Source: Planctomycetota bacterium
GTDB lineage: Bacteria > Planctomycetota > SZUA-567 > H5-PLA8
Direction: 5' to 3'
Assembly: GCA_045863855.1 (NCBI GenBank)
Contig: BTVV01000013.1
Span: forward strand, 18,834 to 82,833
DNA: 64,000 nt
Shown: in pieces, positions 33,001-36,000 of the stretch
Layout: every line of letters begins with the position of its first letter
How positions within the stretch are numbered: the first letter of the stretch is position 1
Made by a program: the position numbers

Positions 33001-36000
33001 GTGCTGGTGAACCACTACATGAACGCGTATTCGCTGCTGCCGTGGAACATCCCGGTTCCGCAACAGCCGGTGCCGAAGCACGTTAGCGCCGGGCAGGCCG
33101 ATTTCCGCGACGTGATCATGGTCGCGGGGAAAGACCCGTACGAGTGGAAGGGCTACACGCGCGAGAACGGTGCGTACGCGCGGCCGTGCGAGAAGATCAA
33201 AAAGCGCCAGGCTGCGGAGAAGCAACTCGCCGGCGCCAGCAAGTAAACCGAGGCCTCGCTTCAGGAGTTATACGCCATGGCAAACCTCGATCCGAAAACC
33301 GTTTACGACCGCGATGGGTATTATGTCGCGCGCGGGGTCTTCACGCCTGAGGAAGCGCGGGCGCTGCGCGAGCACTTTATGCGGCGGCGCGCGGAAGGGC
33401 CGAAACCCGGCGATCTGGGCGGGAATCCCAAGAGCGGCGAGAAGGATCCGCTCAATGCGTATCCGCGCATGATCAACATGCATCCGTGGGACGAGACAAC
33501 GAACACGCTTTGGCAAGACCCGCGCCTGAAAGACCTTGCGGCGAAGCTGGTGGGCGATGCGGTGGAGTTGAAGCAGACGATGCTGTACTTCAAGCCGCCG
33601 GGCGGGCGCGGGCAGGGCTTGCACCAGGACTGCCAGTACATCCAGCAGAAGCCGCTGATCGGCGTTTGGGTGGCGCTCGACGATTGCGACGCGGCCAACG
33701 GGCAGATGGTGGTCGTGCCGGGGAGCCACAAGCTGGGTCTGCAAGAAGTGACAAGTGCCGACGAGTCCAAGAGTTTCGTTGGCGGGCAGACCGTATTGCC
33801 CGAGGGTTGCCGCGAAGCGGGCGTGCCGATGGCGGCCGGCGACGTGCTCTTTTTCGACGGCTTCACGATCCACGGGAGTTACAACAACACGACGGCCGAC
33901 CGCTTCCGGCGGAGCTTCATCGTTCATTACGTCGGGGCGCACGCGGAGAAGCTGGTCGCGGACGAGAAGCAGCACATGAGCTACGTGCGCAAGCAGGTCT
34001 TGGAGAAGCAAAAGGTAGGCGCGTAAGGAGTTAAGCGAAGGCGCGCAGACGGGAGCGTCCGCGGTTCGCGCAGCCGAACGCCGGGCTGCAATTAACACTT
34101 GTATCCGCCTCGCTTTAAGCTATCTTCCCCGCTTCGTTTTGAGCACGTCCCCGCGGCCCCTGTGAGTGGCCATATGGACTGCTGCTCGGGGCTAAGGGCC
34201 GGCGCCGCGCGAGTTTAGCTTTCGCCGCCGCGATCCCACGGATGCAAGGAGTCAGACGATGTCTTCCGCCACAGGTATTCTCGGCCGCAAGGTCGGCATG
34301 ACTCAGGTTTTCAACGAAGCGGGCTTGCGCGTGGGCGTGACGGTCCTGGAAGTCGGCCCGTGCAAGGTCTTGCAGGTCAAGGACGTCGAGAACGACGGCT
34401 ACTTTGCGCTGCAGTTGGGCTTCGGCGAGAAGAAGGAAAAGAACACGTCGAAGCCGTTGCAGGGGCATTTCGCGAAGGCCGGCGCAAAGCCGGCTCCGTA
34501 CGTCGGCGAGATTCGTCTCGCGGCGGCGGCCGAAGACAAGCAGGGCGAAGAGGTTACGGTTTCGATTTTCGAAGGCGTGCAGAAGGTGGACGTGACGGGC
34601 ACGAGCAAGGGCAAGGGCTTCGCCGGCACGATCAAGCGTTACAACTTCCAGCGGCAGCGTGCGACGCACGGTAACAGCAAGAACCACCGGACGTTAGGTT
34701 CGCTGGGCCGGCACATGTCGATCAACAAGGGCGTGCCGAAGGGCAAGAAGATGCCCGGGCACATGGGTAACGCGAAGGTGACGGTGCAAGGCTTGAAGGT
34801 CGTTAAGATCGATCCGGACAACCACTTACTGCTGATCGAAGGCGCGGTTCCCGGCCCGAACGGGGGCTTCGTCGTGGTGAACAAGTCGATCCAAGAGAAG
34901 GTGCGGAAGGACAAGGAAAAGCGCCCGAAGTACTAAGCCAGGAATTTCCGAAGATTCTGCTCGAACGGGCCGGAAGAAATTCCGGCCCGTTTTTTTATGC
35001 TTAAACCGCACGAGTGCTGCTCGAAGTGAGTTACGCAAAGTGTATGGCCGAGGAAGCTATACGAGGCGCTATATTTGCGCCACGTCGTGCGCTAAGTGTA
35101 AAAGTGTAAAGCGTAAGTGTAAAGTGTAAGGCTAACTTTACACTTAGGTTTACACTTTTTTTTGACGCGGTTCGAGCGTGACAAAAGGCGCGAACCGGGT
35201 CGAATGGGTTCGAAAAAAGGCGCGTCCTTCCGTGACCTTCCGCGTCAGGGGTGCGGGGGAGGGGGTTGGGGCGCGTCGGCTCGAATGACGACCCAACGGG
35301 CGATGCGCGGGCAGCACAGAAAGACCAGCAGCAGGAGGAAGAGCTGGCCATACGGCGTAAAAAGGAAGAGCCAGAGCGGGTACCACCAGAAGACCGCATG
35401 CGCATCCACGCCTATATCCAAGTAATCGACGCCACCGCGTCGATTCAGGTACTGCCATTTCAGGTTCAACAGCATGACCCACGAGCCTCCGAAGGCGGCG
35501 GGGATTAAAACGCAAAGCGTAATAAGACGCCGGCTTGAGTCCGCCGTTCGATTACGCGCCAATAAGCGCAGGCCGATCAGCCACCAGATCGCGAGCAGCG
35601 TCCAAATAATCAGCAGTCCGATGAATAGCGGAGTATGGGCGTTCCGATCGATCAGTGGCCAAGCAAATAACCATGCGGCCGCGAACATTTCGACGGTCAA
35701 TCCGTAGAATTCGGTGACGCGAAACTGGACCTTGGCCTGAGGGGCCACAGGCTTTAGCCACATCGGCGCGAGCACGGCCGCCCCACAGACATGCGCGAGG
35801 GCCAAGGTCCACAAGAAGTCAAGGATGGGCATTCCGGAGCTCCGCGAACTTCGCCGGTGCGGTCTTGTGAAGGCCGTGCAAACCCATAATATAGCGGTAG
35901 GTACATGCAGGGGAAATCCCACTACGGGGCGGCCGATTGAGCATATGGATGGAATCGTGGCGCAAAGCGATAGGCTTGGTTTCCGTCTGCTTCGAACTTT

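What a model noticed while it worked through the whole genome (the two positions that open the first line are those of the whole stretch)
34092..34936. S10 ribosomal operon broken into three: lone rplC (uL3) with its own conserved leader RNA that copies the geometry of 23 [...]
rpsJ (C88), rplC (C13) and rplD (C33) lie at three places. The rplC-rplD break is class-wide and rplC stands alone across the order. Lone rplC has its own promoter and a conserved ~55-nt leader (52976-53025): 5-bp stem, 1x3 internal loop, 4-bp stem, GUGA-capped hairpin, the same stem-loop geometry as 23S helix 96, so a candidate uL3 autoregulatory leader.
Evidence so far: rplC has neither rpsJ nor rplD within 1.5 kb in 19 of 19 order genomes (20 with unpublished G019) and rpsJ has no rplC. 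rplD follows rplC in 0 of 18 other class genomes (14 keep rpsJ-rplC) but in 22 of 29 phylum controls. Leader in 17 of 17 family genomes; in 16 sequences P1 pairs in 80 of 80 cells with two-sided changes at 3 of 5 pairs, P2 in 57 of 64; the model hits once in this genome (E 1e-10, call 128). G006/G007 23S shows CCAGU-U-GGCC...GGCC-AUC-GCUGG. No Rfam match.
(Added by a program. Inside this text positions count along the whole contig: contig position 18,834 is position 1 of the stretch shown here. "Call 12" and the like, gene names such as g00115 and contig names such as C1 are that model's own, and its searches are not shown. The text may have been shortened before it was handed on; [...] marks where a part breaks off. 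The agent that wrote the report below was given it as the finding of a first reader that could run no searches.)

Follow-up and report, generated by a model that had tools for sequence, protein, structure and literature searches.

The report
Candidate L3 feedback leader RNA
The gene for ribosomal protein L3 stands alone here behind a small folded RNA that copies a loop of the large ribosomal RNA, and similar loops sit before the L3 gene in unrelated bacteria, which suggests an overlooked feedback switch in which spare L3 binds its own message.

Summary
Confirmed: rpsJ, rplC and rplD lie apart, also in near-complete relatives, and lone rplC carries a conserved leader (core 34141-34187) in 17 of 17 family genomes. 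P1 pairs in 90 of 90 cells, with two-sided changes. No Rfam match.

Its conserved letters form a C-loop (AC-CNC-UG opposite CA-N-GU) matching the loop at the base of 23S helix 96, in reversed topology.

New: C-loop hairpins recur just before rplC in other lineages. A Clostridia-type pattern was followed by rplC in 119 of 119 evaluable hits. A strict scan was enriched before rplC but not before rplD or rpsJ (tuned after seeing data).

Best reading (about 0.68): a uL3-binding autoregulatory leader, a ligand absent from the r-leader tables I read. Binding is not shown, the uL3 contact with this loop is recalled, and no Shine-Dalgarno switch or leader terminator was found here. Lone rplC is not unique to this order (17 of 102 other phylum loci).

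The parts
34099..34126 (+). Probable sigma70-type promoter (TTGTAT, 16 nt, TATCTT)
   Evidence: Sequence. A TTGnnn-16/17-TAnnnT site ends 11-16 nt before P1 in 12 of 18 leaders. Not reported by the consensus scan; start site not mapped.
34141..34187 (+). Conserved leader hairpin: P1 34141-34145/34183-34187, P2 34147-34150/34176-34179, variable P3 34155-34158/34168-34171 with a GUGN-containing loop
   Evidence: Alignment A3 and pair counts; model R1 gives its only strong hit per genome here (trained on these sequences).
34146..34146 (+). Single unpaired base of the C-loop (short strand); C, A or U, never G in 18 of 18 leaders
   Evidence: also never G in 28 of 28 class 23S H96 loops.
34180..34182 (+). 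Three-base long strand of the C-loop (UGC here; C-N-C in 16 of 18 leaders, last C in 18 of 18)
   Evidence: 23S counterpart C-Y-C in 28 of 28.
34188..34245 (+). Non-conserved spacer with one or two hairpins; no terminator-like U-run; 46-132 nt from core to ATG across the family
34246..34251 (+). Shine-Dalgarno sequence AAGGAG
   Evidence: Sequence; GGAG present before the start in all 17 leaders folded.
34259..34936 (+). rplC, ribosomal protein uL3, 225 aa, only gene of the unit
   Evidence: Pfam PF00297; E 6.5e-64 to solved uL3 chains.
34963..34992 (+). Intrinsic terminator-like hairpin with U-run closing the unit
   Evidence: a strong similar hairpin follows rplC in 10 of 16 family loci tested (G006 left out).

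Best explanation
After the S10 operon broke, rplC became a one-gene unit with its own promoter and terminator (gene layout shown; promoter inferred). The 5' end of its mRNA folds into a hairpin (structure supported by covariation) whose internal loop is a C-loop that copies the loop at the base of 23S rRNA helix 96, with the open end on the other side (sequence match shown; 3D fold inferred from the C-loop consensus). Free uL3 that finds no 23S rRNA binds this mimic (inferred) and lowers its own synthesis, most likely at translation initiation by steric block or entrapment, or through mRNA decay, rather than by refolding (inferred, weakest step). It is a ribosomal leader for a ligand not listed before, and C-loop leaders before rplC in other lineages are probably the same solution.
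For: (1) rplC is the only gene of the unit in 20 of 20 order loci, the 'only regulated r-gene' rule of Eckert and Weinberg. (2) Covariation: 90.7% of 248 cells paired, 28 two-sided changes, 0 of 500 shuffles. (3) Column-by-column match with H96 base: leader AC 17/18, C 16/18, C 18/18, UG 13/18, GU 17/18; 23S AC, C, C, UG, GU each 28/28; bulge never G in either. Rfam LSU consensus there reads GGAC-CUC-UGG / CCA-U-GUC. The strict long-strand pattern occurs once in the 2,944-nt G006 23S, at this loop, with its native partner. (4) A C-loop at the equivalent place is annotated in the H. marismortui structure and C-loops are called RNA-protein binding sites (PMC2952876); the leader fits the C-loop core of PMC4551918. 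(5) Recurrence outside the training set: lone rplC of G073, G077, G102; a Clostridia-type pattern followed by rplC in 119 of 119 evaluable hits, with unspecified stem pair 4 paired in 120 of 120 (UA 75, CG 44, AU 1). Strict scan: 7 of 48 (0.9 expected), 8 of 45 (0.5), 5 of 25 (1.0) before rplC against 0 of 17 before rplD and 1 of 19 before rpsJ. (6) uL3's globular domain organises domain VI (PMC9935924) and the H94-H97 junction lies next to uL3 (preprint 10.64898/2026.10.06.757013).
Against: No binding or regulation shown. Direct uL3 contact with this loop is recalled from ribosome structures, not found in a paper I read; H96 also contacts bL19 and uL14 (PMC11354259), and one cryo-EM study says higher uL3 occupancy strengthens domain VI 'except H96' (PMC9687910). 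Clamping P1/P2 leaves Shine-Dalgarno accessibility unchanged (0.375 vs 0.373, 17 leaders) and there is no leader terminator. Much of the match to H96 is simply the C-loop consensus. The middle loop base is mostly G in leaders and C/U in 23S, and the C-G closing pair of genus g7 leaders is not mirrored in G012 23S. With the full 5-bp P1 the basal loop ranks only 48 of 15,450. The scan was tuned over three versions; the relaxed one showed no enrichment for non-family lone rplC (11 of 27 vs 10.8). 20 of 25 non-family rplC-first leaders lack a strict C-loop, so many lone rplC genes do without it.
Confidence: 0.68

Rival explanations
1. The C-loop is a real H96 mimic but the ligand is another H96-binding protein made elsewhere (uL14 or bL19, alone or with uL3), which couples lone rplC in trans to the other ribosomal-protein operons.
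For: bL19 and uL14 contact H96 (PMC11354259). rplN (C33) and rplS (C16) lie in other units of G000, so cross-control would tie the broken pieces together.
Against: Eckert and Weinberg state that the ligand is encoded by a regulated gene in all known cases. The motif tracks rplC in unrelated lineages. uL14 and bL19 are later binders than uL3 (PMC9687910).
Confidence: 0.1
2. The hairpin is a protein-independent 5' stabiliser or folding element, and the C-loop is only a recurrent structural module.
For: It sits a few bases from the inferred start. No switch is predicted. C-loops are listed as architectural motifs (PMC4551918).
Against: A stabiliser would not need invariant loop letters or the GU/AC pairs of H96. 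In Clostridia the C-loop lies inside an operon, next to the Shine-Dalgarno sequence. No enrichment before rplD or rpsJ.
Confidence: 0.1
3. One reading: the leader imitates the distal H96 loop.
For: Same 5 bp / 1x3 / 4 bp outline in G006 and G007 23S; a UUY run precedes the stem in both.
Against: Conserved letters differ (-17.6 bits, rank 1,096). Rfam draws a 2-nt bulge there. The UU run is 2 nt out of register. This part of H96 is, from recall, the bL17 site.
Confidence: 0.04
4. The leader imitates the uS8 site of 16S helix 21, so uS8 from the rplD-spc unit controls rplC in trans.
For: The short strand of G006 h21 (GCA-A-GU) equals the leader's GCA-N-GU. uS8 uses mimicry on the spc mRNA (PMC10931766). 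An unchecked note reports an S8 mimic before rplC in another lineage (e1-823201).
Against: The long strand has 3 bases between the A and U in h21 and 4 in the leader. The S8 register needs an A at the bulge position (5 of 18 leaders) and a loop A (1 of 18) (the required positions are recalled).
Confidence: 0.04
5. A non-ribosomal factor (for example a small RNA or another protein reading the conserved GUGN loop of P3) is the real regulator.
For: G-U-G in the P3 loop is conserved (two G's in at least 90% of rows) and is not explained by the H96 match.
Against: The Clostridia-type and G077/G102 leaders keep the C-loop without this loop. Pairing of the loop with the coding start was seen by eye only in a few genomes.
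Confidence: 0.04

Closest known systems
Ribosomal leaders that mimic rRNA (L20, S15, S4, eL15 motifs of Eckert and Weinberg 2020, PMC7247131; S8 operator of spc)
   Same: Structured 5' UTR with covariation, directly before an r-protein gene, copying conserved letters of an rRNA site in another scaffold.
   Different: No L3 leader is in their Table 1 or Table S1; no Rfam family matches; the mimicked element is a C-loop.
C-loop motif at the base of 23S helix 96 (H. marismortui 2716-2722/2760-2764 in PMC2952876; assignment to H96 inferred from its distance to the sarcin-ricin entry of the same table)
   Same: C-N-C opposite one bulged base, U-A closing pair, G-C and U-A pairs below.
   Different: Reversed topology (short strand 5'), middle base mostly G, third P1 pair inverted, capped by a variable P3 instead of the four-way junction.
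E. coli S10-operon leader bound by uL4 (PMC3616713, PMC10931766)
   Same: Controls the unit that contains rplC.
   Different: Five hairpins with attenuator before rpsJ, ligand uL4; here rplD is in another unit and no terminator lies in the leader.
Cyanobacterial conserved structure upstream of rplC (PMC12873609) and L4-Archaeoglobi leader (PMC7247131 Table 1, first gene rplC)
   Same: Predicted leaders directly before rplC.
   Different: No ligand given in the passage (cyanobacteria) or L4 assigned by precedent (Archaeoglobi); both precede multi-gene operons. The cyanobacterial figure could not be read, so whether it holds a C-loop is open.

Membership tests
Ribosomal leader (r-leader) | Conserved secondary structure with covariation | tested here: met
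   control keeps no relatedness, R-scape not run.
Ribosomal leader (r-leader) | Consistently upstream of an r-protein gene | tested here: met
   17 of 17 family genomes; other model hits only at E 0.006 or weaker.
Ribosomal leader (r-leader) | Transcribed in the same mRNA as the gene | tested here: inconclusive
   Promoter-like site upstream; RNA-library contigs from 2 of 4 runs laid bridge leader and rplC at 99+% identity but at depth about 2 and may be DNA.
Ribosomal leader (r-leader) | Binds the encoded r-protein and represses expression | not testable with these tools
   Needs binding and reporter assays.
Ribosomal leader (r-leader) | Expression platform: terminator or Shine-Dalgarno sequestration | tested here: not met
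   No change on clamping, no U-tract. Not required of all r-leaders (entrapment types, recalled).
C-loop motif | Long strand C-N-C/A between Watson-Crick closing pairs, one bulged base on the short strand | tested here: met
   C-N-C 16 of 18, U-G-C 2 of 18; both closing pairs Watson-Crick in 18 of 18; definition from PMC4551918.
C-loop motif | Crossing non-Watson-Crick pairs and base triples in 3D | not testable with these tools
   Needs probing or a structure.
Mimic of basal H96 loop | Shares rRNA-conserved flanking pairs beyond the generic motif | tested here: met
   GU/AC 17 of 18 leaders vs 28 of 28 rRNAs; unique site in G006 23S.
Mimic of basal H96 loop | Leader and rRNA co-vary within a genome | tested here: not met
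   G012 leader has C-G where its 23S has U-A; one genome of g7 only.
Mimic of distal H96 loop | Conserved U opposite A-Y-Y with U-G closing pair | tested here: not met
uS8 operator (h21 mimic) | A at the bulge-adjacent position and 2-nt bulge with conserved A (recalled) | tested here: not met
Any Rfam 15 family | Covariance-model match | tested here: not met
   (E up to 5, nothing over the leader).

The most novel reading that the evidence does not exclude
uL3 is a widespread, overlooked autogenous repressor in bacteria. It recognises C-loop hairpins that copy the base of 23S helix 96 and that have arisen before rplC repeatedly, in both strand orders, in several Planctomycetota lineages and across Clostridia-type genomes; this family's lone rplC is the case that isolates uL3 as the ligand.
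Probability: 0.55. Interest if true: 0.82.

Novelty: new variant of a known kind. Interest (0 to 1): 0.72.

Why it matters
uL3 is a primary 23S-binding protein for which I found no bacterial leader in the tables and review passages read. A one-gene rplC unit removes the usual ambiguity about the ligand and gives a 47-nt, directly testable uL3 site. The same loop before rplC inside intact S10 operons of Clostridia-type genomes offers a testable answer to how S10 operons are metered outside Gammaproteobacteria, and shows how feedback control is rebuilt when the operon breaks.

Tried and rejected
Distal H96 and uS8-site models (see rivals). A Shine-Dalgarno switch through the 5' UUYY run: pairing probability 0.09 or less in 14 of 17 leaders, about 0.35 in 2, strong only in the clamped metagenome leader. 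Pairing of the P3 loop with the coding start: seen in G000's fold, not general. GUGAG also occurs in G006 23S at 2630 and 2651; a 5-6 letter match, not pursued. Single-sequence folding is no more stable than shuffles (z -1.0 to +1.5). G000 holds no assembled 23S, so G006 and others stand in. Model R1 found no hit under E 0.2 in 31 other loci, including G073, so it does not reach the other C-loop leaders; its weak genome hits in G001, G016, G048 are not clean C-loops. The metagenome scan gave only 1 family member of 80; the other 79 served as controls. G073 has no relatives in its order or class and G102 only one, so no covariation test there. RNA-run contigs cannot show start or strand; two (X2, X6, close relative) run from upstream phyH through rplC and stop near its stop codon, which fits read-through or DNA as well. 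Literature searches for uL3 contacts with this loop found no explicit statement; two papers I wanted were not held. Searches had mis-set coordinates or columns and were redone.

Full report
Gene layout. The window holds rplC at 34259-34936 behind two phyH-family genes and before a terminator-like hairpin at 34963-34992. rpsJ lies alone on C88 between an esterase and a glycosyltransferase; rplD opens the rplD-rplW-(S26 peptidase)-rplB...spc unit on C33. In G006 and G007 rpsJ and rplC share a contig 669 kb and 191 kb apart, so the split is real. No rpsJ or rplD was hit in 20 of 20 order rplC loci (one is unpublished G019; four have 236-659 nt downstream). In the rest of the class rplD followed in 0 of 34 loci (33 of the 34 genomes with a hit; G035 left out), rpsJ preceded in 28, 5 were lone and 1 ended at a contig edge. 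Outside the class I took 104 of the genomes: rplD followed in 20 of 24 (three class genomes set aside) and 65 of 78 evaluable, and 17 of these 102 were lone. The class-wide break stands; lone rplC is not peculiar to this order.

The leader. All 17 family genomes and one metagenome contig share GRGYR-N-GYNN...NNRC-YNC-YRCYY (the G011 row was corrected by hand, and alignment A3 agrees). On A3, P1 pairs in 90 of 90 cells with two-sided changes at 3 of 5 pairs, P2 in 64 of 72, and 0 of 500 shuffles reach the pairing or covariation score (this control ignores relatedness). RNAalifold finds the same stems. P3 varies and ends in a 6-7 nt loop containing GUGN. A TTGnnn-16/17-TAnnnT site ends 11-16 nt before P1 in 12 of 18; the consensus scan did not report it. 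G000 and G006 differ at 3 places from the promoter to the start codon but heavily just upstream. Model R1 hits once strongly in each of 17 family genomes, always here, by construction; the three other hits in 62 class genomes have E 0.006 or worse. Rfam has no match. RNA-library contigs of 2 of 4 runs bridge leader and gene, at low depth.

Which rRNA loop. Helix 96 has two candidate loops. Against a profile of 17 leaders (G006 left out), among 4,541 complementary 1x3 arrangements within 150 nt in G006 23S, the distal loop scores -17.6 bits (rank 1,096) and the basal loop +5.3 (rank 10); with all of P1 the ranks are 7,644 and 48 of 15,450. The six top candidates printed join strands 99-143 nt apart and I judge them non-native from recall, untested. 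Rfam's LSU model draws the basal loop as 3x1 with consensus GGAC-CUC-UGG / CCA-U-GUC and the distal one as a 2-nt bulge. In 28 of 30 class 23S loci that could be anchored (one is G019) the basal loop is AC-CYC-UG / YA-H-GU without exception; leaders show AC 17, C 16, C 18, UG 13, GU 17 of 18, and the bulge is never G in either set. The strict long-strand pattern occurs once in the 23S, at this loop. This is the C-loop motif: PMC4551918 (passages) gives the core and the bulged base; PMC2952876 (passages) lists a C-loop at H. marismortui 2716-2722/2760-2764 and calls the motif a protein-binding site; PMC3273805 (passages) counts four rRNA C-loops. Against exact mimicry: the middle base differs, and G012 has C-G in its leader where its 23S has U-A.

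Recurrence elsewhere. Lone rplC of G073 and of G077/G102, other classes, starts with the same kind of hairpin. The metagenome rplC loci meant as controls showed a conserved C-loop in the rpsJ-rplC spacer. The pattern came from rplC spacers, so this shows specificity, not discovery. Stem positions not fixed by the pattern co-vary (26 of these loci aligned: 182 of 182 cells paired, 26 two-sided changes). Ten loci of these kinds gave no Rfam hit over the motif at E 0.5. A strict C-loop scan on de-duplicated regions found 7 of 48 phylum spacers (0.9 expected from shuffles), 8 of 45 metagenome spacers (0.5), 5 of 25 non-family rplC-first leaders (1.0), 2 of 20 class spacers (0.3) and 9 of 16 family leaders (0.9), against 0 of 17 before rplD (0.7) and 1 of 19 before rpsJ (0.5). 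Both strand orders occur. This was the third version of the scan; the relaxed one gave 25 of 45 (6.0), 19 of 51 (9.7), no enrichment for non-family lone rplC (11 of 27 vs 10.8) and none in rplC-rplD spacers (0 of 28, 2 of 28).

Ligand and mechanism. rplC is the one gene common to all these cases and the only gene here. PMC9935924 (passages) says uL3's globular domain builds domain VI; a 2026 preprint (passages) places the H94-H97 junction next to uL3; PMC2995063 (passages) names H94 as a uL3 contact. I found no sentence stating a uL3 contact with the basal loop; that contact, shared with uL14 and bL19, is recalled from ribosome structures. PMC11354259 (passages) gives H96 contacts for bL19 and uL14, and PMC9687910 (passages) excepts H96 from the uL3-dependent gain in density. 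How binding would repress is open: forcing P1/P2 does not change Shine-Dalgarno access and no leader terminator is seen; the core lies 46-132 nt from the ATG, bridged by hairpins. Steric block, entrapment or decay are the remaining options. In the Clostridia-type leaders the loop lies within about 25 nt of the Shine-Dalgarno sequence by the pattern's design, so direct occlusion is plausible there.

Known or new. Eckert and Weinberg 2020 (parts 1-3 of 6 of the text, supplement 1 part 3 and searches) list no L3 leader. The 2024 review PMC10931766 (passages and section 2.6) gives uL3 no regulatory role in what I saw. PMC3616713 (passages) covers the L4 leader. PMC12873609 (passage) reports a conserved structure before cyanobacterial rplC; its supplement could not be read and may bear on novelty. 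PMC2662882, PMC9508819 and PMC2330231 (passages) added nothing decisive. Searches found no uL3 autoregulation paper; most subscription journals are not in the library. Unchecked notes of this scan describe other leaders before rplC; they are leads only.

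Noticed in passing
L331-L450 (genome collection); L084, L086, L090-L099 (metagenomes): Conserved C-loop hairpin between rpsJ and rplC, just before the Shine-Dalgarno sequence, in Clostridia-type genomes; 119 of 119 evaluable hits precede rplC; no Rfam family. Deserves its own report.
   Followed up: partly
G000:C33 about 23390-23610 (-); L212-L229: rplD has its own promoter and a strongly conserved leader: a hairpin followed by a long terminator-like stem with U-run; 16 of 32 predicted pairs show two-sided changes in 10 of the 19 loci aligned; no Rfam match in 4 loci. 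Candidate uL4 attenuator.
   Followed up: partly
L033-L036 (G021-G024, family f5), about 120 nt before rplC: A different conserved leader before lone rplC: two hairpins with G-run and C-run loops that could kiss, the second next to or pairing with the Shine-Dalgarno region; 4 sequences, little covariation.
   Followed up: partly
L020, L021 (G001, G002), before rplC: A third shared motif before lone rplC in family f2; two sequences of one genus only.
   Followed up: no
L261, L266, L267, L270, L274, L275, L286, L076: C-loop hairpins in the rRNA strand order (long strand first) in rpsJ-rplC spacers, some with the Rfam H96 letters C-CUC-UGG / CCA-Y-G.
   Followed up: partly
L231-L250, before rpsJ: A short CUCUUUGA-like motif recurs in many rpsJ 5' regions of the family; in several genomes rpsJ follows what looks like an EF-G gene end (by eye).
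   Followed up: no
G000:C33:21707-22390: An S26 signal peptidase gene sits between rplW and rplB; also noted in e1-7815145.
   Followed up: partly
window 35088-35165: AT-rich run of TGTAAAG-like repeats with an inverted partner just after the rplC terminator.
   Followed up: no
window 34322-34345 (uL3 residues 22-29): uL3 of G000, G007, G008 and G037 reads V/I-G-V-T where the other 10 of 14 aligned have a proline; this region is, from recall, near H96.
   Followed up: no
G005:C51 (L029, L030): A second 23S in G005 is only 74% identical to G006's and looks like contamination.
   Followed up: no
leader P3 loop, window 34159-34167: Conserved GUGN-G loop is not explained by the H96 match.
   Followed up: partly
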